Sequence record: MZ997840.1
Source of the DNA: Escherichia phage ULINTec6
Length of the DNA: 44,728 bases
Direction: 5' to 3' (one strand)
Within the stretch, counting starts at the first letter, position 1; every line of letters begins with the position of its first letter. Both the position numbers and the translations under genes were made by a program. The notes beneath the pieces are model-generated. The model did no database searches, had not been told where the DNA came from, and saw only the letters and a list, made by a program, of their open reading frames with translations. Shown here piece by piece: positions 1 to 20,040 of this stretch.

Positions 1-39
1 TTCACTCGCTCACGTGTACCTTATGTTATTCCTTGATGG

Positions 40-160
40 ACAGCTTAGGTTAGCCTTAGTAGGATACCTTAGTTAAAGCCTTAGTGCTTAGCTTAGTATC
101 AACTTAGTAGTGTACCTTAGTTAGTCTTAGTGTCAGACCTTAGTGATTGCATAGCTAAAG
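40..160. repeat. Cluster of about 8 short direct repeats containing CTTAGT, spaced 10-15 bp apart, near the left genome end
   Basis: Repeated ccttagt/cttagtg motifs read directly; comparable to short-repeat arrays flanking terminal repeats in T7-like genomes. Confidence 0.5.
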
Positions 161-290
161 CTATAAGATGCTAATAGGTCGCGGTCGGTAGACCGCTAAG
201 AAGAGTAATAGTAATAAGATGCAGTAGGAGGAACACCAGAAACCTAGCCAACCTAGCCTATCCTAGCTCTGTATCTATTGCTTCTCCTTA

Positions 291-306
291 GTCTCACATG
301 TTAGAC
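291..306. repeat. Degenerate copy (GTCTCACATGTTAGAC) of the dispersed 16-bp palindrome
   Basis: 15/16 match to GTCTCACATGTGAGAC found six times elsewhere. Confidence 0.4.
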
Positions 307-373
307 AGCCTAGGTTTGTCTTAGTAGTTGTGACATGTATCACATAAATAATCTATCTTAGTGAAACTTAGTG

Positions 374-402
374 TTGACACAGGCAATCAACAGGTATACA
401 TT
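374..402 (+). promoter_or_regulatory. Host sigma70-type early promoter (TTGACA-17 bp-TACATT)
   Basis: Perfect -35 TTGACA at 374-379, 17-bp spacer, -10 TACATT at 397-402; upstream of the first early ORFs, as for the T7 A promoters. Confidence 0.6.
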
Positions 403-552
403 AGCAATCACTGAGACGGACCTAGCAAGCTGTCTCAGGTTATAAGCAGGAGAATTGATGCGTAAGCCATAGCTAGTGGATGTAGTCGCATGAAGGCTTG
501 AGTAAGGGGCCGTTCAATACCTTCTTCCTCTGGAGACAACGCTTATAACATT

Positions 553-564
553 GCTCTTTAACAA
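553..564 (+). promoter_or_regulatory. Conserved early-region motif GCTCTTTAACAA, copy 1 (candidate RNase III processing site)
   Basis: Identical 12-mer three times in early intergenic spaces, flanked by inverted repeats. Confidence 0.35.
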
Positions 565-623
565 CTTGCTTAGTGTAACCTATGTATGCCGTGGTTAATC
601 ACTTATTGAATGAGGAATTAACT

Positions 624-755
624 ATGAGTTTAGCAACGCTGAGTTATGAAGAAATGTATGCAGCCTACTACAACGCATTAGATGAAGGAGAAGAAGCATT
701 GACCTTCGCTGAGTTTATGGAGGCTTTATGGAGTTTCTATCATGACTCTAAATAA
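624..755 (+). CDS. Small early hypothetical protein (43 aa)
   Basis: ATG with GAGGAA RBS 7 nt upstream; stop overlaps the start of the next ORF (translational coupling); below the ORF-track size cutoff. Confidence 0.3.
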   Translation: MSLATLSYEEMYAAYYNALDEGEEALTFAEFMEALWSFYHDSK

Positions 756-924
756 CCGTGAACTATCCGTTCTCTTCACTCTGTTATGCTACATGATTCG
801 TAACAACGAATTGCTTACAGATGATGAGTTGGCACTATATCACCGCTTTCTTAACGAAGGTTGGACAGATACAGTTAACCATAAACGTGACTTGATGAAG
901 GAGTTAAGCAATGTATCAGCATGA
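742..924 (+). CDS. Early hypothetical protein (60 aa)
   Basis: ORF track; chain of overlapping early ORFs downstream of the host promoter. Confidence 0.45.
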   Translation: MTLNNRELSVLFTLLCYMIRNNELLTDDELALYHRFLNEGWTDTVNHKRDLMKELSNVSA

Positions 925-1135
925 GGTTTTCTTTGAATCAGCTAAAGAAGCTATTCGTTTGCATGATGATATGAAGTTAGCAGATATGAAGGTTGGCTTG
1001 ACCAGCTTCCTGCTGGATTACAACATGGAATATCACCGAGTTACCTTAGTATCTGAGTATGACAACCAAGTCATTACTGAGTATCTAGGCAGTGAAGATT
1101 ACGATTACGATGAAGTAATCACGACAAATCTCTAA
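911..1135 (+). CDS. Early hypothetical acidic protein (74 aa)
   Basis: ORF track; start overlaps the previous stop by 14 nt. Confidence 0.45.
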   Translation: MYQHEVFFESAKEAIRLHDDMKLADMKVGLTSFLLDYNMEYHRVTLVSEYDNQVITEYLGSEDYDYDEVITTNL

Positions 1136-1143
1136 ATTAACTA

Positions 1144-1172
1144 TTGACAACCACGGCATACAAGGCTACATT
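1144..1172 (+). promoter_or_regulatory. Host sigma70-type early promoter (TTGACA-17 bp-TACATT), second copy
   Basis: Same architecture as the promoter at 374-402: TTGACA 1144-1149, 17-bp spacer, TACATT 1167-1172. Confidence 0.6.
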
Positions 1173-1205
1173 AAGCATCAAGACGGCGACGTCTTTAAAC
1201 ATCCC

Positions 1206-1217
1206 GCTCTTTAACAA
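1206..1217 (+). promoter_or_regulatory. Conserved early-region motif GCTCTTTAACAA, copy 2 (candidate RNase III site)
   Basis: Motif lies inside the inverted repeat atcaagac ... gtcttgat. Confidence 0.35.
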
Positions 1218-1261
1218 TCTGGTTTGTGTCTTGATAGGCTTACTAACAAAGGTGAACTATC

Positions 1262-1426
1262 ATGACTAACGCACAACGTAAACGCTATGATGCATTGCAA
1301 GAGAAACTTGCTGTTGCTTATGCCGCTTGGCAAGCTAACACAGATAAGAGCAAACACGATAAACTTTATAGTAAAGTGGTTGCAATTAATGCTAAAATAG
1401 ATAAACTTGTGAATAGTATCTTATAA
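1262..1426 (+). CDS. Small early hypothetical protein (54 aa)
   Basis: ATG preceded by AAAGGTGA RBS; translated by hand to TAA at 1424-1426. Confidence 0.35.
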   Translation: MTNAQRKRYDALQEKLAVAYAAWQANTDKSKHDKLYSKVVAINAKIDKLVNSIL

Positions 1427-1468
1427 GATAGTTGCTGGCATTAGCCAGCCTATCAAGGCACAAGCCAC

Positions 1469-1480
1469 GCTCTTTAACAA
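1469..1480 (+). promoter_or_regulatory. Conserved early-region motif GCTCTTTAACAA, copy 3 (candidate RNase III site)
   Basis: Motif flanked by cctatc ... ggatag inverted repeat. Confidence 0.35.
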
Positions 1481-1575
1481 TATGGATAGAAGCTTCTTAG
1501 TCTGGATAGGTTAAACCTAGGGTATTCTTTTGAGTACCCTATAATGTAACCTAACTAACTAATGAGGATTAAATC

Positions 1576-1905
1576 ATGGAACGCAATGCTAACGCTTACT
1601 ACAATCTTCTGGCTGCAACTGTTGAAGCATTCAACGAGCGCATCAAGTACGATGAGATTCGTGAAGACGATGATTACTCTGATGCACTGCATGAGGTTGT
1701 AGATAGCATGGTGCCAGTTTATTACAGCGAAATCTTTACTGTGATGGCTGCGGATGGTATTGATGTTGATTTTGAAGATGCTGGTTTGATTCCTGATACG
1801 AAGGATGTAACCAAGATTCTACAAGCTCGCATCTATGAAGCTCTTTATAATGATGTACCAAATGACAGCGATGTAGTTTGGTATGAAGGCGAAGAAGAGG
1901 AATAA
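1576..1905 (+). CDS. ocr: Ocr-like anti-restriction protein (T7 gene 0.3 homologue, DNA mimic)
   Basis: 109-aa highly acidic protein; blocks IKYDEIRED, VPVYYSEIFTVMAADGID, FEDAGLIPDTKDV and ILQARIYE closely match T7 Ocr as I recall it; acidic C-terminus. Confidence 0.8.
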   Translation: MERNANAYYNLLAATVEAFNERIKYDEIREDDDYSDALHEVVDSMVPVYYSEIFTVMAADGIDVDFEDAGLIPDTKDVTKILQARIYEALYNDVPNDSDVVWYEGEEEE

Positions 1906-2013
1906 TAAGATGGAAAGGCAATATAACTTCATATTTTCAGACGGTGTGACCTTAAAATGTTCCTTGCGATTTGCACAGATTCGTGAGGAAGTACTAGGAA
2001 CTACATACAAGCT

Positions 2014-2036
2014 ATTTAGCTGACACTATAAGAGAA
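2014..2036 (+). promoter_or_regulatory. Degenerate phage-promoter-like sequence (ATTTAGCTGACACTATAAGAG)
   Basis: Matches the phage promoter consensus except around the start site (TATAAG instead of TATAG); may be weak or non-functional. Confidence 0.3.
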
Positions 2037-2099
2037 GGCTTAACAAGGCGTTACTACGGTAGCGCCTGATTAAACTTTCATTTATTAGGAGTTGAGATT

Positions 2100-2285
2100 A
2101 TGAAAACCTTGATTGGATGCCTGTTGTTGTCTTCACTTGTCCTTGCTTTTGCTGCAAAGGCTGGCTATGACGCTTACAAGATAGAACAAGCTCAGCAAAA
2201 GTGGGCTGAGAAATACACCTTATGCAGTAAGAGTCATACTTATGAGTACTGCAATAAGGCATTAAAACACCTTTGGAGAGAGTAA
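2100..2285 (+). CDS. Small early protein with N-terminal hydrophobic signal/TM segment (61 aa)
   Basis: ORF track; N-terminus MKTLIGCLLLSSLVLAFAA is signal-peptide-like. Confidence 0.4.
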   Translation: MKTLIGCLLLSSLVLAFAAKAGYDAYKIEQAQQKWAEKYTLCSKSHTYEYCNKALKHLWRE

Positions 2286-2346
2286 CTAGCCTATAGCCTG
2301 CCTGTGTGGGCTATGTGATATTTACTTACACTATAAGGTGATTACT

Positions 2347-3231
2347 ATGACTACTGAAAACGTCCTCCTGTCTGTCCGCGAAGCTGCAACCGCTGAGATT
2401 AAGCAACATTTGGATAATATCGGCACTTCTTACATCAAAGTTGGCGCTTGTCTGAATGAATTACGCGGTGATTTCGAAGGTCAAAAAGACTTTTTAGCTT
2501 ATGTAGAATCAGAGTTCGGCATCAAGAAGGCACAATGCTACAAGCTGATGAGTGTAGCCCGTGTCTTTGAAGGAGACGAACGCTTTAAAGGTGTGGCTAT
2601 GCGTGTAATGCTGGCGCTTGTTCCTTTCGCTGATGAAAATATAATCATGGAGAAGGCCGCAGAACTCGCCGCAGATGGCAAGCTGGACACTAACGCCGTA
2701 AACGCTCTGATTGATCCTAAGAAAGAGACAAAGGCTGAGACGGTACAATCTAAGGCTGAGACAGTAAAACCGCAGGAGAACGCGACTGAGGCCGCAGAAT
2801 CACAGGAAATGCAAGCGCCGCAGGTAGTGCCACCCGCGAGCGAGCAGGAGGCCGACGAATCAGCACCGTGGGAAGAGGAAAGCAAGCCTGAAGCACCGAA
2901 GTCCGCGCCGCTGGATAACACGGCTAATACTGAGAATGCCGCTATTGCCGGTCTGCTGGCACAAATTAAGGCACTGACTGAGCAATTACAGGCAGCTAAT
3001 GACCGCATCGCCTCCTTAAGTAGCGCACGCGAAAGCAAGAAGGCAGCCGCGCCTATGCTGCCGCAATTCAAATCTTCCTGCTTCTATGCTCGCTTAGGTT
3101 TAAGCGCCGAGGAGGCAACGAAGAAAACAGCAGTTAACAAGGCACGCCGCGAACTGGTTAAGCTAGGCTATGGTGAAGGCCATGAAGCATGGGCCTTAAT
3201 ATCTGAGGCAGTAGAAGAATTAACTAAGTAA
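2347..3231 (+). CDS. Early hypothetical protein with globular N-terminal domain and low-complexity A/E/K/P/Q-rich C-terminal half
   Basis: ORF track (start adjusted to ATG 2347 after AAGGTG RBS); occupies the position of T7 gene 0.7 upstream of RNAP but shows no kinase motifs. Confidence 0.55.
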   Translation: MTTENVLLSVREAATAEIKQHLDNIGTSYIKVGACLNELRGDFEGQKDFLAYVESEFGIKKAQCYKLMSVARVFEGDERFKGVAMRVMLALVPFADENIIMEKAAELAADGKLDTNAVNALIDPKKETKAETVQSKAETVKPQENATEAAESQEMQAPQVVPPASEQEADESAPWEEESKPEAPKSAPLDNTANTENAAIAGLLAQIKALTEQLQAANDRIASLSSARESKKAAAPMLPQFKSSCFYARLGLSAEEATKKTAVNKARRELVKLGYGEGHEAWALISEAVEELTK

Positions 3232-3294
3232 CCTTATCGGTGGCATCTTCTTAGGTGTCACCTATTAAGGTTTCTTTCACTAGGAGTAAACAAG

Positions 3295-5922
3295 ATGCAA
3301 GACCTACACGCTATTCAACTTCAACTTGAAGAAGAAATGTTTAACGGCGGTATCCGTCGCTTTGAAGCGGACCAACAACGCCAGATTGCATCCGGTAATG
3401 AATCAGACACGGCATGGAATCGCCGCTTATTGTCCGAACTAATCGCACCTATGGCTGAAGGTATTCAGGCATACAAGGAAGAGTATGAAGGTAAAAGAGG
3501 CCGTGCACCGCGTGCATTGGCTTTCATTAACTGCGTAGAAAACGAAGTGGCAGCATATATCACGATGAAAATCGTTATGGATATGCTGAATACAGACGTT
3601 ACCTTACAAGCTATCGCTATGAATGTAGCGGACCGCATCGAGGACCAAGTACGTTTTAGCAAGCTGGAAGGTCACGCAGCTAAGTACTTTGAGAAAGTAA
3701 AGAAGTCACTTAAGGCGAGCAAGACGAAATCTTATCGTCATGCACACAACGTAGCGGTAGTGGCTGAGAAGTCTGTAGCTGACCGCGACGCGGATTTCTC
3801 CCGCTGGGAAGCATGGCCTAAAGATACCTTGCTGCAAATCGGTATGACCTTGCTCGAAATCTTGGAGAATAGCGTATTCTTCAATGGTCAACCTGTCTTC
3901 CTTCGTACCTTGCGCACTAACGGCGGCAAACATGGTATCTACTACTTACAGACTAGTGAGCACGTAGGCGAGTGGATTACAGCGTTCAAAGAGCACGTAG
4001 CACAACTAAGCCCAGCTTATGCACCTTGCGTTATCCCTCCGCGCCCTTGGGTGTCTCCTTTTAATGGTGGGTTTCACACTGAGAAGGTGGCTAGCCGCAT
4101 CCGCCTTGTTAAAGGCAACCGTGAGCACGTCCGTAAACTGACCAAAAAGCAGATGCCAGCAGTTTACAAGGCCGTTAACGCTTTGCAGGCGACTAAATGG
4201 CAGGTTAACAAGGAAGTATTGCAGGTGGTAGAGGACGTTATACGTCTCGACCTCGGCTATGGTGTACCTTCCTTTAAACCACTAATCGACCGCGAGAACA
4301 AACCGGCTAATCCCGTGCCGTTAGAATTTCAGCACCTTCGCGGACGTGAACTGAAAGAAATGCTTACGCCGGAACAGTGGCAATCCTTCATTAACTGGAA
4401 AGGTGAATGCACCAAGCTGTACACCGCAGAAACTAAGCGTGGCAGCAAGTCGGCGGCTACGGTCCGCATGGTTGGTCAGGCCCGTAAATATAGCCAGTTC
4501 GACGCAATCTACTTCGTGTATGCACTGGACAGCCGCAGCCGCGTCTACGCGCAATCTAGCACTCTCTCACCGCAATCAAACGACTTAGGCAAGGCACTCC
4601 TACGGTTTACCGAAGGGCAGCCGCTAAATAGCGCTGAGGCGCTTAAGTGGTTTTTGGTGAACGGAGCTAATAACTGGGGTTGGGATAAGAAAACTTTCGA
4701 CGTGCGCACCGCTAACGTGCTGGACGGCGAGTTTCAAGACATGTGCCGCGACATTGCAGCGGATCCTCTGACCTTCACTCAATGGGTAAATGCCGATTCC
4801 CCTTATGGCTTCCTTGCATGGTGCTTTGAATATGCGCGTTATCTGGATGCACTGGATGAAGGCACGCAAGACCAATTCATGACGCACCTCCCAGTCCATC
4901 AAGATGGTAGTTGTTCTGGTATCCAGCACTACAGTGCTATGCTACGCGATGCAGTAGGTGCGAAAGCAGTAAACCTTAAGCCCTCTGACTCCCCTCAAGA
5001 TATTTATGGTGCCGTTGCGCAGGTAGTAATTCAGAAGAATTATGCATACATGAATGCAGAGGATGCGGAAACCTTCACTTCTGGCAGCGTGACTTTAACA
5101 GGTGCGGAACTGCGTAGCATGGCTAGTGCGTGGGATATGATAGGAATCACTCGCGGCCTGACCAAAAAGCCCGTAATGACACTACCTTACGGCAGCACAC
5201 GTCTAACCTGCCGTGAGTCAGTGATTGATTATATCGTTGATTTAGAAGAAAAAGAGGCCCAACGGGCTATTGCGGAAGGGCGTACCGCCAACCCTGTACA
5301 TCCTTTTGATAATGACCGTAAGGACAGCCTGACACCTAGCGCAGCTTATAACTATATGACAGCTCTAATCTGGCCTTCTATCTCGGAAGTGGTTAAAGCT
5401 CCTATAGTGGCAATGAAAATGATTCGTCAGCTTGCACGTTTCGCAGCTAAAAGAAACGAAGGCTTAGAATATCCCTTACCAACTGGCTTCATCTTGCAAC
5501 AAAAGATAATGGCTACCGATATGCTCCGCGTATCCACTTGCTTGATGGGTGAAATCAAGATGAGTCTCCAGATTGAAACAGATGTAGTTGATGAAACGGC
5601 AATGATGGGTGCGGCTGCTCCTAACTTCGTCCACGGTCACGATGCTAGCCACCTGATTCTGACTGTATGTGACCTAGTGGATAAAGGTATTACATCCATT
5701 GCAGTCATCCATGATTCTTTCGGTACTCATGCAGGGCGTACCGCAGACCTGCGGGATAGCTTAAGGGGAGAAATGGTTAAGATGTATCAAAACCATAATG
5801 CCCTGCAAAACCTGCTAGATGTGCACGAAGAGCGTTGGTTAGTAGACACCGGAATCCAAGTACCAAAGCAAGGGGAGTTTGACCTTAACGAAATCTTAGT
5901 TTCAGACTATTGTTTCGCATAA
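3295..5922 (+). CDS. Phage single-subunit DNA-dependent RNA polymerase (T7 gene 1 family)
   Basis: 875 aa; C-terminus ...[12 protein letters not shown] matches T7 RNAP ...LRDILESDFAFA; [18 protein letters not shown] and IHDSFGTH catalytic motifs present. Confidence 0.97.
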
Positions 5923-19536: not shown

Positions 19537-20040
19537 ATGTCACACTATGAATGTAAGAAGTGTCATAAGCGTTATGATTACTGTACTTGTGGTCAAGAGA
19601 AAACATCTTTTAAAGTTGGAGACAAGGTATTTCGTAATGAAAAAGATTCTATTCCTTGGAATCAATACTGCAAAGAAGCTGGTATTGACCCTGATAGCCC
19701 TGTAACCATAGATGATATTGATGGCATTAACTTGTGCTTTCGTGAGGTGAGGGGTACAGGTTGGGATTCCAAAAAATTCAAACTTGCATCTGATAAGTTA
19801 GACAACAATATGGTAACTCAGCCTAAGCACTACGAGTTCTTTGATGGTGTAGAGGCAATCACTATCATTGCCCGCAGTATGACTGAAAAGCAATTCGCTG
19901 GGTACTGCATGGGTAATGCCCTTAAGTATCGCCTGCGTGCAGGTAAGAAGTTCAATACTGAAGAAGACTTGAAGAAGGCAGACTATTATAAAGAGTTATT
20001 CCAGAAGCATCGTCACGAATGTATTGATGAGGATATTTAA
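19537..20040 (+). CDS. Hypothetical protein with N-terminal Cys cluster (CKKCHKRYDYCTCG)
   Basis: ORF track, start adjusted to ATG 19537 after GGAGGG RBS. Confidence 0.55.
   Translation: MSHYECKKCHKRYDYCTCGQEKTSFKVGDKVFRNEKDSIPWNQYCKEAGIDPDSPVTIDDIDGINLCFREVRGTGWDSKKFKLASDKLDNNMVTQPKHYEFFDGVEAITIIARSMTEKQFAGYCMGNALKYRLRAGKKFNTEEDLKKADYYKELFQKHRHECIDEDI

What the first reader, a model, noticed from the sequence alone, without database searches (positions are those of the whole stretch)
624..2285. Early host-takeover / anti-defence cluster: four small overlapping ORFs, an Ocr-like DNA mimic and a small signal-peptide protein
Under two strong sigma70-type promoters lie four tiny ORFs of unknown function (three translationally coupled), then an Ocr-like acidic protein (1576..1905) and a 61-aa protein with a signal/TM segment. 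Early regions of T7-like phages are hotspots for restriction, BREX and other defence inhibitors and host RNAP or division inhibitors, so the uncharacterised small ORFs are candidates for new inhibitors.
Basis: partly seen in the sequence, partly recalled or inferred. Interest (0 to 1): 0.5.

Follow-up and report, generated by a model that had tools for sequence, protein, structure and literature searches.

The report
Early gene region of a K1E-like coliphage
This is the ordinary, already annotated early-gene region of the published E. coli K1 phage ULINTec6: it holds a true relative of the T7 anti-restriction protein Ocr and six small, conserved proteins whose functions are still unknown.

Summary
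The window is the genome of phage vB_EcoP_K1-ULINTec6 (Vectrevirus; K1E/K1-5/SP6 group). Its left end has the only two TTGACA-17-TACATT sigma70 sites in the genome. Each is followed by an exact rrn-type boxA.

Each has a Shine-Dalgarno site and shows purifying selection. The Ocr call is solid: Pfam ocr 108.9 bits, T7 Ocr structure E=1e-27, 25 of 34 acidic positions and F54 kept.

Three corrections:
It is the most conserved gene of the cluster.
- The 61-aa gene lies behind the first phage-RNAP promoter (2014-2031).
- The phage is SP6-like, not T7-like in the strict sense.

No function could be assigned to the small ORFs. ORF-C has a generic ferredoxin-like fold. ORF-B is a three-helix protein without structural neighbours. 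Homologues of both were in a published accessory-gene screen and are not among its hits.

ORF-D and the 61-aa gene sit in swappable cassette slots. ORF-B and the 37-aa peptide are core genes.

Verdict: already known and annotated; modest interest.

The parts
374..402 (+). Sigma70-type promoter P1 (TTGACA-17-TACATT).
   Evidence: conserved at the same place in several relatives
553..564 (+). boxA1, an exact rrn-type boxA 12-mer GCTCTTTAACAA in the P1 leader
   Evidence: 3 copies, all + strand, all in the early region; 0.35 expected; present in every relative, including T7 nt 813
624..755 (+). ORF-A: 43 aa, pI 4.05, phrog_2061. Relative of SP6 gp2. Sporadic among relatives.
   Evidence: (pN/pS 0.32)
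742..924 (+). ORF-B: 60 aa, phrog_9275. Equals K1E gp1 and SP6 gp3. Near-core gene, predicted three-helix protein.
   Evidence: 101 phage records; pN/pS 0.21
911..1135 (+). ORF-C: 74 aa, pI 4.26, phrog_6403. Equals K1E/K1-5 gp2 and the SP6 gp4 family. Ferredoxin-like beta-alpha-beta-beta-alpha-beta fold with a near-invariant C-terminal half.
   Evidence: (pLDDT 94.2)
1144..1172 (+). Sigma70-type promoter P2, with hexamers identical to P1
1206..1217 (+). boxA2, the left border of the ORF-D cassette
1262..1426 (+). ORF-D: 54 aa, basic (pI 9.8), helical, phrog_16783. Equals K1E gp2.8. A rare accessory cassette also found in Przondovirus K30 and in Klebsiella phages.
   Evidence: 22 records; window 1205..1487 is 95% identical in DNA to K30 667..949
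1427..1454 (+). Hairpin directly after ORF-D
1469..1480 (+). boxA3, the right border of the ORF-D cassette, about 100 nt upstream of ocr
1485..1575 (+). Long irregular hairpin in the ocr leader; its 3' arm covers the ocr Shine-Dalgarno sequence. RNase III-site-like, in the position of T7 R0.3.
   Evidence: z -5.9; z -4.3. The same architecture occurs in ACG-C91, with changes on both arms of the apical stem, and in SP6 and T7.
1576..1905 (+). ocr: 109 aa, net charge -22. DNA-mimic anti-restriction protein of the T7 gp0.3 family.
   Evidence: PF08684, 108.9 bits against a cutoff of 25; 1s7z, E 1e-27
1910..2023 (+). 37-aa ORF (K1E/K1-5 gp4, phrog_11746), 4 nt after the ocr stop. Core gene of Molineuxvirinae and the most constrained gene of the cluster.
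   Evidence: 134 records in Escherichia, Klebsiella, Salmonella, Proteus and other phages; pN/pS 0.11
2014..2031 (+). First SP6-type phage-RNAP promoter (ATTTAGCTGACACTATAA). It overlaps the stop codon of the 37-aa ORF.
   Evidence: (12 such sites, all + strand; 0.01 expected)
2026..2088 (+). Stable leader hairpin in front of the 61-aa gene
   Evidence: z -6.2
2100..2285 (+). 61-aa protein (K1-5 gp5 family, phrog_20059). Signal-peptide-like N-terminus (MK + hydrophobic core + AFA|A), then a ~40-aa basic domain with two conserved Cys. It sits in a hypervariable slot for small membrane proteins.
   Evidence: 13 records; 4 clusters among 5.8e9 proteins; pN/pS 0.16
2292..2315 (+). Terminator-like hairpin after the 61-aa gene
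2320..2336 (+). Second phage-promoter-like site (ATTTACTTACACTATAA, spacer one base shorter), in front of the gp6-like gene
2347..3231 (+). Neighbour: 294-aa core early protein (K1E gp6 / SP6 gp7, phrog_4571), function unknown, directly upstream of the phage RNAP gene (3295..5922)

Best explanation
The interval is the class-I (early) region of the Vectrevirus vB_EcoP_K1-ULINTec6, organised as in K1E, K1-5 and SP6.

SHOWN:
- Two consensus-like sigma70 promoters, each followed by an exact rrn-type boxA, precede a polycistronic set of seven small genes ahead of gp6 and the phage RNA polymerase gene.
- One of the seven is a bona fide Ocr.
- The other six are real protein-coding genes under selection, belonging to phage-only families with no assigned function.
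- The region is modular. boxA copies delimit segments. The segment between the last two boxA holds alternative single-gene cassettes, here ORF-D. The slot after the 37-aa ORF always holds one small membrane or secreted protein, drawn from several unrelated types, here the 61-aa protein.

INFERRED:
- When the left genome end enters the cell, E. coli RNAP starts at P1 and P2.
- boxA recruits the Nus antitermination factors, so transcription reaches the phage RNAP gene.
- The structured leaders are RNase III processing sites, as in T7.
- The Ocr dimer mimics bent DNA and sequesters type I R-M enzymes and the BREX methyltransferase before they meet the incoming DNA. This also makes the phage visible to Ocr-sensing systems such as PARIS.
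- The core small proteins (ORF-B and the 37-aa peptide) most likely act on conserved host machinery, i.e. host takeover.
- The variable genes are strain-specific accessory functions: ORF-A, the ORF-C N-terminal alleles and ORF-D as counter-defence, and the exported 61-aa protein as an envelope or superinfection-exclusion factor.
For: Identity of the phage:
- 95% DNA identity to mutPK1A2 and 90-93% to K1E and K1-5.
- Exact protein matches are named ULINTec6 and come from a 44,728-bp contig. The paper gives 44,728 bp and accession MZ997840.

Promoters, boxA and phage promoters.

Ocr:
- Pfam 108.9 bits; PDB 1s7z E 1e-27.
- 50% identity to T7 Ocr, 74% to K30 Ocr, 94% to K1E gp3.
- 25 of 34 T7 acidic positions kept, and Y50, I53, F54, V56, M57, A58 identical.
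- Mechanism of T7 Ocr against BREX BrxX: PMC11842806. F54V loses PARIS and EcoR22I triggering: bioRxiv 10.1101/2023.04.06.535777.

Coding status of the small ORFs: pN/pS 0.11-0.47; PHROG families.

Core versus accessory distribution.

Cassettes:
- Window 1205..1487 is 95% identical to Przondovirus K30 667..949, and the block ends at the two boxA.
- Alternative cassette contents in the same slot.
- The hypervariable membrane-protein slot.

Structured leaders.

T7 early genes: of 14 tested, only 0.3 and 1.7 have a significant tblastn match in the window; none of the host-takeover genes 0.4, 0.5, 0.6A, 0.7, 1.2 or gp2 does.
Against: - Nothing here measures transcription, processing, translation or protein activity.
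- The overall count of promoter-like sites in 1..3400 is no higher than in shuffles (7 against 7.3). Only the two best sites stand out.
- No function is demonstrated for any small ORF. The core-versus-accessory split into 'takeover' and 'counter-defence' is an inference from distribution alone.
- Homologues of ORF-B and ORF-C are not among the reported hits of the one large accessory-gene screen that included them.
- The signal peptide of the 61-aa protein was judged by hydropathy and the AxA rule, not by a dedicated predictor.
Confidence: 0.72

Rival explanations
1. One reading: the uncharacterised small ORFs are mainly new inhibitors of host defence systems (R-M, BREX and others), clustered with ocr in an anti-defence island.
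For: They sit next to ocr in the earliest-expressed region. ORF-A, ORF-C alleles, ORF-D and the 61-aa gene vary between close relatives, like accessory genes. ORF-D was recently exchanged between phage subfamilies together with its boxA borders, and lies next to ocr in both. ORF-A and ORF-C are strongly acidic like known DNA mimics.
Against: No similarity to any characterised anti-defence protein or family. ORF-B and the 37-aa ORF are core genes under strong constraint, which is atypical for arms-race genes. Homologues orf96 and orf172 are not among the counter-defence or cell-death hits in the Silas et al. screens. The 61-aa protein is predicted to be exported, so it cannot act on cytoplasmic defence proteins.
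Confidence: 0.25
2. The small proteins are non-homologous analogues of the T7 host-takeover genes, which have no detectable homologue here: host RNAP shut-off like gp0.7 and gp2, or FtsZ/MreB inhibition like gp0.4 and gp0.6. On this view the 37-aa peptide, in the gene-0.4 position right after ocr, would be a division or RNAP inhibitor.
For: No tblastn homologue of T7 0.4, 0.5, 0.6A, 0.7 or gp2 anywhere in the genome, yet the phage has the same lifestyle. The 37-aa ORF and ORF-B are core genes under strong constraint across phages of Escherichia, Salmonella, Klebsiella and (37-aa ORF only) Proteus, as expected for proteins that target conserved host machinery. The 37-aa ORF is translationally linked to ocr, as 0.4 is in T7.
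Against: Profile-profile comparison of the 37-aa family with the T7 gp0.4 family gives 4% probability, so there is no homology. The two belong to different PHROGs with no cross-hits. orf172, an ORF-B homologue, is not listed as toxic in the screen. Only position supports the analogy.
Confidence: 0.3
3. The 61-aa protein is a lipoprotein, or a cytoplasmic inhibitor, rather than a Sec-exported periplasmic or membrane protein.
For: A lipobox-like LIGC occurs at residues 4-7.
Against: The Cys lies only 6 residues from the N-terminus, and the hydrophobic core (KD17 2.32, residues 3-19) follows it rather than preceding it. A canonical AFA|A signal peptidase I site follows the core. Every alternative gene in this slot also carries a hydrophobic segment.
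Confidence: 0.07
4. Some of the tiny ORFs are chance reading frames, and the conservation reflects RNA or DNA elements (promoters, leaders) rather than proteins.
For: The 3' end of the 37-aa ORF overlaps the phage promoter. A 14-codon in-frame extension (582..623) is conserved upstream of whichever ORF comes first, so it is probably leader RNA.
Against: pS reaches 0.4-0.9 while pN stays at 0-0.2 for every ORF, including the 37-aa one. All have Shine-Dalgarno sites. ORF-C folds with pLDDT 94.
Confidence: 0.03

Closest known systems
T7 Ocr (gp0.3; Pfam PF08684; PDB 1s7z)
   Same: Clear homologue: 50% identity over 109 aa, same length class, pI 4.05, 25 of 34 acidic positions conserved, and the residues around F54 conserved. 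It is an early gene preceded by boxA and a long leader hairpin.
   Different: Shorter acidic C-terminal tail. It belongs to the K1E/K30 allele class (74% identity to Przondovirus K30 Ocr, 45% to SP6 Ocr), so ocr alleles cross subfamily lines. Its activity is untested.
Early regions of K1E, K1-5, mutPK1A2 and SP6 (Molineuxvirinae), as annotated in RefSeq
   Same: Same gene order and the same families: K1E gp1, gp2, gp2.8, gp3 (ocr), gp4 and gp6, with the 61-aa gene corresponding to K1-5 gp5. DNA identity is 90-95%.
   Different: A mosaic of alleles: ORF-A and ORF-B as in mutPK1A2, ORF-C and ORF-D as in ULINTec7, the 61-aa allele as in Mt1B1_P10. K1E carries a different 75-aa protein in the gp5 slot.
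T7 gene 0.4 (FtsZ inhibitor; from my own knowledge, Kiro et al. 2013)
   Same: A small peptide gene immediately after ocr and translationally linked to it.
   Different: No detectable homology (hhalign 4%; different PHROGs).
rrn / lambda boxA Nus-dependent antitermination (from my own knowledge of the rrn boxA consensus TGCTCTTTAACAA)
   Same: Exact 12-mer GCTCTTTAACAA on the transcribed strand downstream of each host promoter. It is conserved in the early regions of all relatives examined here: T7, K30, SP6, Proteus phage Premi, Klebsiella phage H01 and the Vectrevirus/SP6-like loci.
   Different: Here the copies also coincide with the borders of exchanged gene cassettes. Nus dependence is untested.
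CutA1 / PII-like ferredoxin-fold proteins
Small phage membrane or periplasmic proteins used for superinfection exclusion (T4 Imm/Sp, T5 Llp; from my own knowledge) and T7 gp0.5
   Same: A small early protein with an N-terminal hydrophobic segment, in a position that varies between close relatives.
   Different: No sequence similarity, and the function is untested.

Membership tests
Ocr / T7 gp0.3 DNA-mimic family (PF08684) | Sequence match to the family model above its curated threshold | tested here: met
   108.9 bits against a cutoff of 25, E 2e-31, covering 93 of 101 model positions; phrog_2568 E 2.8e-51
Ocr / T7 gp0.3 DNA-mimic family (PF08684) | Homology to the solved T7 Ocr structure | tested here: met
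   1s7z and 2y7c, E about 1e-27, residues 7-104 aligned without gaps
Ocr / T7 gp0.3 DNA-mimic family (PF08684) | Dense array of surface carboxylates that mimics DNA phosphates | tested here: met
   29 Asp/Glu in 109 aa, pI 4.05. 25 of 34 T7 acidic positions are acidic; 5 of the 9 not kept are alignment gaps in the shorter C-terminal tail.
Ocr / T7 gp0.3 DNA-mimic family (PF08684) | Residues around F54 (F54V abolishes PARIS and EcoR22I triggering) | tested here: met
   Y50, I53, F54, V56, M57 and A58 are identical; F54V phenotype
Ocr / T7 gp0.3 DNA-mimic family (PF08684) | Binds and inhibits type I R-M enzymes and BREX BrxX/PglX | not testable with these tools
   Needs biochemistry or plating assays. 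The T7 Ocr mechanism is taken from PMC11842806.
T7 gp0.4 family (FtsZ inhibitor), considered for the 37-aa ORF | Detectable sequence or profile homology to gp0.4 | tested here: not met
   hhalign probability 4.2% over 10 columns; phrog_11746 against phrog_7202/5058 with no cross-hits at E<=10; tblastn of gp0.4 on the window E 0.82
rrn-type boxA antitermination site | Match to the boxA consensus on the transcribed strand, downstream of a host promoter | tested here: met
   Three exact GCTCTTTAACAA at 553, 1206 and 1469, all on the + strand; 0.35 expected. The first two lie about 150 nt downstream of P1 and about 35 nt downstream of P2. boxA3 has no promoter of its own and lies in the same transcript after ORF-D.
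rrn-type boxA antitermination site | NusB/NusE binding and Nus-dependent read-through | not testable with these tools
   Needs nusB or nusE mutants, or in vitro transcription.
Sec signal peptide (61-aa protein) | Positively charged n-region, hydrophobic h-region, small residues at -3 and -1 | tested here: met
   MK, then TLIGCLLLSSLVLAF (KD17 2.32), then A-F-A|A. The other allele has A-F-T|A. This is a rule-based reading; no dedicated predictor was available.
Bacterial lipoprotein (61-aa protein) | Lipobox Cys preceded by a complete signal peptide | tested here: not met
   The LIGC Cys is at residue 7, before the hydrophobic core rather than after it.
CutA1 / PII-like proteins (ORF-C) | Sequence-level family membership | tested here: not met
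Phage accessory-region genes (sense of Silas et al. 2023) | Variable gene content between conserved flanking genes in related phages | tested here: met
   The boxA-to-boxA slot holds ORF-D, or a 70-aa, 55-aa, 37-aa or 36-aa alternative, or nothing. The gp4-to-gp6 slot holds at least 4 unrelated small membrane proteins. This is not met for ORF-B and the 37-aa ORF, which are core genes.

The most novel reading that the evidence does not exclude
The early region of SP6/K1E-like phages may be built from boxA-delimited cassettes that are exchanged by recombination at the boxA repeats, even between Autographiviridae subfamilies. On this reading ORF-D is one such mobile counter-defence gene. The strictly conserved 37-aa peptide and/or ORF-B would be the still-unidentified host shut-off or division inhibitors of a phage group with no detectable homologue of T7 gp0.4, gp0.7 or gp2. 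The hypervariable small exported protein would be a new superinfection-exclusion or envelope-defence determinant.
Probability: 0.25. Interest if true: 0.55.

Novelty: already known. Interest (0 to 1): 0.25.

Why it matters
As it stands, the finding re-describes the annotated early region of a published therapeutic-candidate phage, and its Ocr is a textbook family member.

The practical points are these:
- K1-capsule phages of this group carry Ocr, so they should resist type I R-M and BREX but be sensed by PARIS-like systems.
- Six conserved small proteins, two of them core to the subfamily, remain without function in a phage group with no detectable homologue of the known T7 takeover genes.
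- The cassette slots identify which genes are most likely to set strain-specific host range.

Together these give a short, well-defined list for wet-lab testing rather than a discovery.

Tried and rejected
1. Homology of the 37-aa ORF to T7 gp0.4, suggested by position and a by-eye resemblance. Rejected: hhalign 4%, different PHROGs.

2. A concatenated six-ORF query to the large protein database returned nothing and cost one search.

3. The ORF-C profile gave E about 1e-19 to designer PPR proteins in the PDB. Rejected as an artefact of summing many sub-threshold repeat matches (0 stretches pass). The confident model is a ferredoxin-like fold, not a helical repeat.

4. ORF-C as a CutA1/PII family member. 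Only a generic fold resemblance.

5. The exhaustive HMMER search with ORF-B found four real relatives, all small phage proteins. The two long hits are translated tandem repeats.

6. Foldseek of the ORF-B model against the PDB gave nothing below E 3.5.

7. The ORF-D PDB hit to a TPR-like designed protein (E 4e-4, 0 stretches) was treated as helical-repeat noise.

8. The weak Pfam DUF6958 hit of ORF-A (E 0.035, below cutoff) was not pursued, because that family also has no known function.

9. Rfam gave nothing relevant in 1..3400.

10. The P1 leader (403..623) and the P2 leader (1136..1261) are not unusually structured: z -0.1 and -0.3.

11. The lipoprotein reading of the 61-aa protein was rejected on the position of the Cys.

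12. Literature searches found no functional study of the SP6/K1E early proteins.
Full report
**What the window is.** The first 3.3 kb match Vectrevirus genomes along their whole length: mutPK1A2 95%, K1E 93%, K1-5 90%. The 875-aa protein at 3295..5922 is the SP6-type single-subunit RNA polymerase, annotated as such in the relatives. Exact protein matches in the large protein database are named 'Escherichia phage ULINTec6' and come from a contig of 44,728 bp, which is the window length. The paper describing that phage gives 44,728 bp, accession MZ997840 and genus Vectrevirus (PMC8541614). The finding is therefore the left-end early region of a published and annotated K1-capsule coliphage of the K1E/K1-5/SP6 group (Autographiviridae, Molineuxvirinae).

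**Checking the observation.** ORFs 624..755, 742..924 and 911..1135 overlap by 14 nt each. All seven genes have a Shine-Dalgarno sequence 7-9 nt before the ATG (read).

The two sigma70 sites (374..402 and 1144..1172, both TTGACA-17-TACATT) are the best in the local scan. They are the only two matches to that pattern in the entire genome, against 0.11 expected. The local count of weaker promoter-like sites is no higher than in shuffled sequence, so only these two stand out.

Comparison with up to 25 related loci gives the following pN/pS values, with synonymous divergence up to 0.9:

| Gene | pN/pS |
|---|---|
| 37-aa ORF | 0.11 |
| 61-aa gene | 0.16 |
| ORF-B | 0.21 |
| ORF-D | 0.21 |
| Ocr | 0.31 |
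| ORF-A | 0.32 |
| ORF-C | 0.47 |

These are real genes.

Two things were missed. The first is a 37-aa ORF at 1910..2023, starting 4 nt after the ocr stop and annotated as gp4 in K1E and K1-5. The second is the first of twelve SP6-type phage promoters, at 2014..2031, which lies in front of the 61-aa gene.

**Ocr.** The 109-aa protein scores 108.9 bits on Pfam 'ocr' against a cutoff of 25. It aligns without gaps to residues 7-104 of the solved T7 Ocr at E 1e-27. It is 50% identical to T7 Ocr, 74% to Przondovirus K30 Ocr and 94% to K1E gp3.

Twenty-five of the 34 acidic positions of T7 Ocr remain acidic. Of the nine not kept, five are alignment gaps in the shorter C-terminal tail. Residues Y50, I53, F54, V56, M57 and A58 are identical. 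F54V is the change reported to abolish sensing by PARIS and EcoR22I.

By homology, this protein should act as a dimeric DNA mimic that sequesters type I R-M enzymes and the BREX methyltransferase BrxX (PMC11842806). Relatives are already annotated as 'ocr-like anti-restriction' or 'protein Ocr'.

**The small ORFs.** All six belong to PHROG families of unknown function. None has a Pfam hit above cutoff or a credible NCBIfam hit.

- **ORF-B** (K1E gp1, SP6 gp3) is found in 101 phage records from Escherichia, Salmonella and Klebsiella phages. An exhaustive HMMER search of 1.84 billion representatives found only four real relatives, all small phage proteins. The single-sequence model is a three-helix protein (pLDDT 86) with no PDB neighbour below E 3.5.
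- **ORF-A** (43 aa, pI 4.05) is a sporadic relative of SP6 gp2.
- **ORF-D** (54 aa, basic, K1E gp2.8) occurs in only 22 records.
- **The 37-aa ORF** is the most widespread (134 records, including Proteus and Klebsiella phages) and the most constrained. Its invariant motif is FSDG..L.CSL.FA..REE..GT.Y.
- **The 61-aa protein** has only four 90%-identity clusters among 5.8 billion proteins. It has a signal-peptide-like N-terminus ending in AFA|A, followed by about 40 residues with two conserved cysteines.

**Published tests.** The accessory-gene library of Silas et al. (bioRxiv 10.1101/2023.04.06.535777) contained orf96, an ORF-C homologue from phage ACG-C91, and orf172, an ORF-B homologue from a Salmonella phage. 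Neither appears among the genes reported with cell-death or counter-defence phenotypes, in that preprint or in the follow-up paper PMC12373910. This is weak negative evidence, limited to the hosts and phages used there.

Three exact copies of the rrn-type boxA 12-mer GCTCTTTAACAA lie at 553, 1206 and 1469, all on the + strand. The first two follow a host promoter; the third lies about 100 nt upstream of ocr. The same 12-mer is present one to three times in the early region of every relative examined, including T7 (nt 813), K30, SP6, Proteus phage Premi and Klebsiella phage H01.

Window 1205..1487 covers boxA2, ORF-D, a hairpin and boxA3. It is 95% identical in DNA to Przondovirus K30 667..949, and the block ends exactly at the two boxA copies. 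In K30, too, the gene lies just upstream of ocr.

Across relatives, the slot between the last two boxA copies holds one of the following:
- ORF-D;
- a 70-aa K1E gp2.5-type gene;
- a 55-aa gene;
- a 37-aa gene;
- an unannotated 36-aa gene (K1-5);
- nothing.

A second variable slot lies between the 37-aa ORF and the gp6-like gene. In all but three of the Molineuxvirinae loci compared it holds one small protein with a hydrophobic segment. At least four unrelated types occur: the 61-aa K1-5 gp5 type, the 75-aa K1E gp5 type, a 51-62-aa type and a 41-aa type.

The leaders before ocr (1427..1575, z -5.9) and before the 61-aa gene (2024..2099, z -6.2) fold far better than shuffled sequence. The ocr leader hairpin recurs in ACG-C91, with changes on both arms of its apical stem, and in SP6 and T7. 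In T7 that position is, from my own knowledge, the R0.3 RNase III site.

**How it most likely works.**

Shown:
- the gene set;
- its conservation;
- the Ocr homology;
- the promoter and boxA motifs;
- the cassette structure.

Inferred:
- host RNAP initiates at P1 and P2 as the genome end enters the cell;
- boxA confers Nus-dependent processivity through to the phage RNAP gene;
- RNase III trims the polycistronic RNA;
- Ocr neutralises type I R-M and BREX.

Of the 14 T7 early genes tested by tblastn, only 0.3 and 1.7 have a significant match in this genome. None of 0.4, 0.5, 0.6A, 0.7, 1.2 or gp2 does. The core small proteins (ORF-B, the 37-aa peptide) and the 294-aa gp6-like protein are therefore the natural candidates for host shut-off. 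The cassette genes are candidates for strain-specific counter-defence (ORF-D, and perhaps ORF-A and ORF-C) or for envelope or exclusion functions (the exported 61-aa protein). The positional analogy of the 37-aa ORF to T7 gp0.4 is not backed by homology (hhalign 4%).

**Novelty and verdict.** The region, its genes and the Ocr assignment are already in public annotation. The claim that the small ORFs are new inhibitors remains an untested and only partly plausible hypothesis. The boxA-bounded cassette exchange, the hypervariable membrane-protein slot and the strongly conserved 37-aa peptide are the most useful leads. I rate the finding as already known, with interest 0.25.

Noticed in passing
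window 1910..2023: A 37-aa ORF directly after ocr that is not in the finding. It is present in all 25 Molineuxvirinae loci compared and in 134 phage records. It has the lowest pN/pS of the cluster (0.11). It is unannotated in SP6 (about 2006..2104) and in Klebsiella phage H01.
   Followed up: yes
window 553..564, 1206..1217, 1469..1480: Three exact rrn-type boxA 12-mers (GCTCTTTAACAA), all on the + strand of the early region. The same 12-mer occurs in the early region of every relative checked, including T7 nt 813, K30, SP6, Premi and H01.
   Followed up: partly
window 1205..1487; L007 (K30) 667..949: The block boxA - ORF-D - hairpin - boxA is 95% identical in DNA to a phage of another subfamily (Przondovirus K30). 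The identity stops at the two boxA copies, which suggests cassette exchange by recombination at boxA. Relatives carry five other small genes, or nothing, in this slot. One of them is an unannotated 36-aa ORF in K1-5 (L003 1314..1424).
   Followed up: partly
window 2024..2346 and the same slot in L001-L027: In all but three of the relatives compared, the slot between the 37-aa ORF and the gp6-like gene holds one small (41-75 aa) protein with a hydrophobic segment. At least four unrelated sequence types occur. This is a hypervariable membrane/secreted-protein cassette behind the first phage promoter.
   Followed up: partly
window 1485..1575 and 2026..2088: Two leaders fold much better than shuffled sequence (z -4.3 to -6.2). 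The ocr leader hairpin covers the ocr Shine-Dalgarno sequence and recurs in ACG-C91 (with changes on both arms), SP6 and T7. It looks like an RNase III site equivalent to T7 R0.3.
   Followed up: partly
window 582..623: A 14-codon in-frame stretch (MYAVVNHLLNEELT) is conserved in relatives upstream of whichever gene comes first, ORF-A or ORF-B. It has no Shine-Dalgarno sequence of its own and contains the one used for the 624 start. It is probably a conserved leader or linker sequence rather than coding.
   Followed up: no
window 2347..3231: A 294-aa acidic core early protein (K1E gp6 / SP6 gp7, phrog_4571) just before the RNAP gene. It has no Pfam hit above threshold and no credible NCBIfam or PDB sequence match. 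It is conserved in all relatives (48-98% identity) and preceded by a second phage-promoter-like site at 2320. It is a candidate for the host shut-off function, for which no T7-type gene was detected in this genome.
   Followed up: no
window 1576..1905 compared with L004, L007, L008: ocr alleles do not follow phage taxonomy. The window/K1E allele is closest to Przondovirus K30 (74%), while SP6 Ocr is closest to T7 Ocr (77%). Among Vectrevirus loci, several allele classes occur, at roughly 95%, 85% and 50-60% identity.
   Followed up: partly
window 1..420: The left end upstream of P1 is filled with degenerate direct repeats built on CTTAGT / CCTTAGT motifs (families of 19-38 nt). This is typical of the region next to the terminal repeat in this phage group. 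The window starts about 320 bp inside the mutPK1A2 coordinate system, so the terminal repeat is probably collapsed in this assembly.
   Followed up: no
window 19813..20022: Apart from ocr, the only T7 early or middle small protein with a tblastn match in the window is the C-terminal part of gp1.7 nucleotide kinase (64% identity over 73 aa).
   Followed up: no
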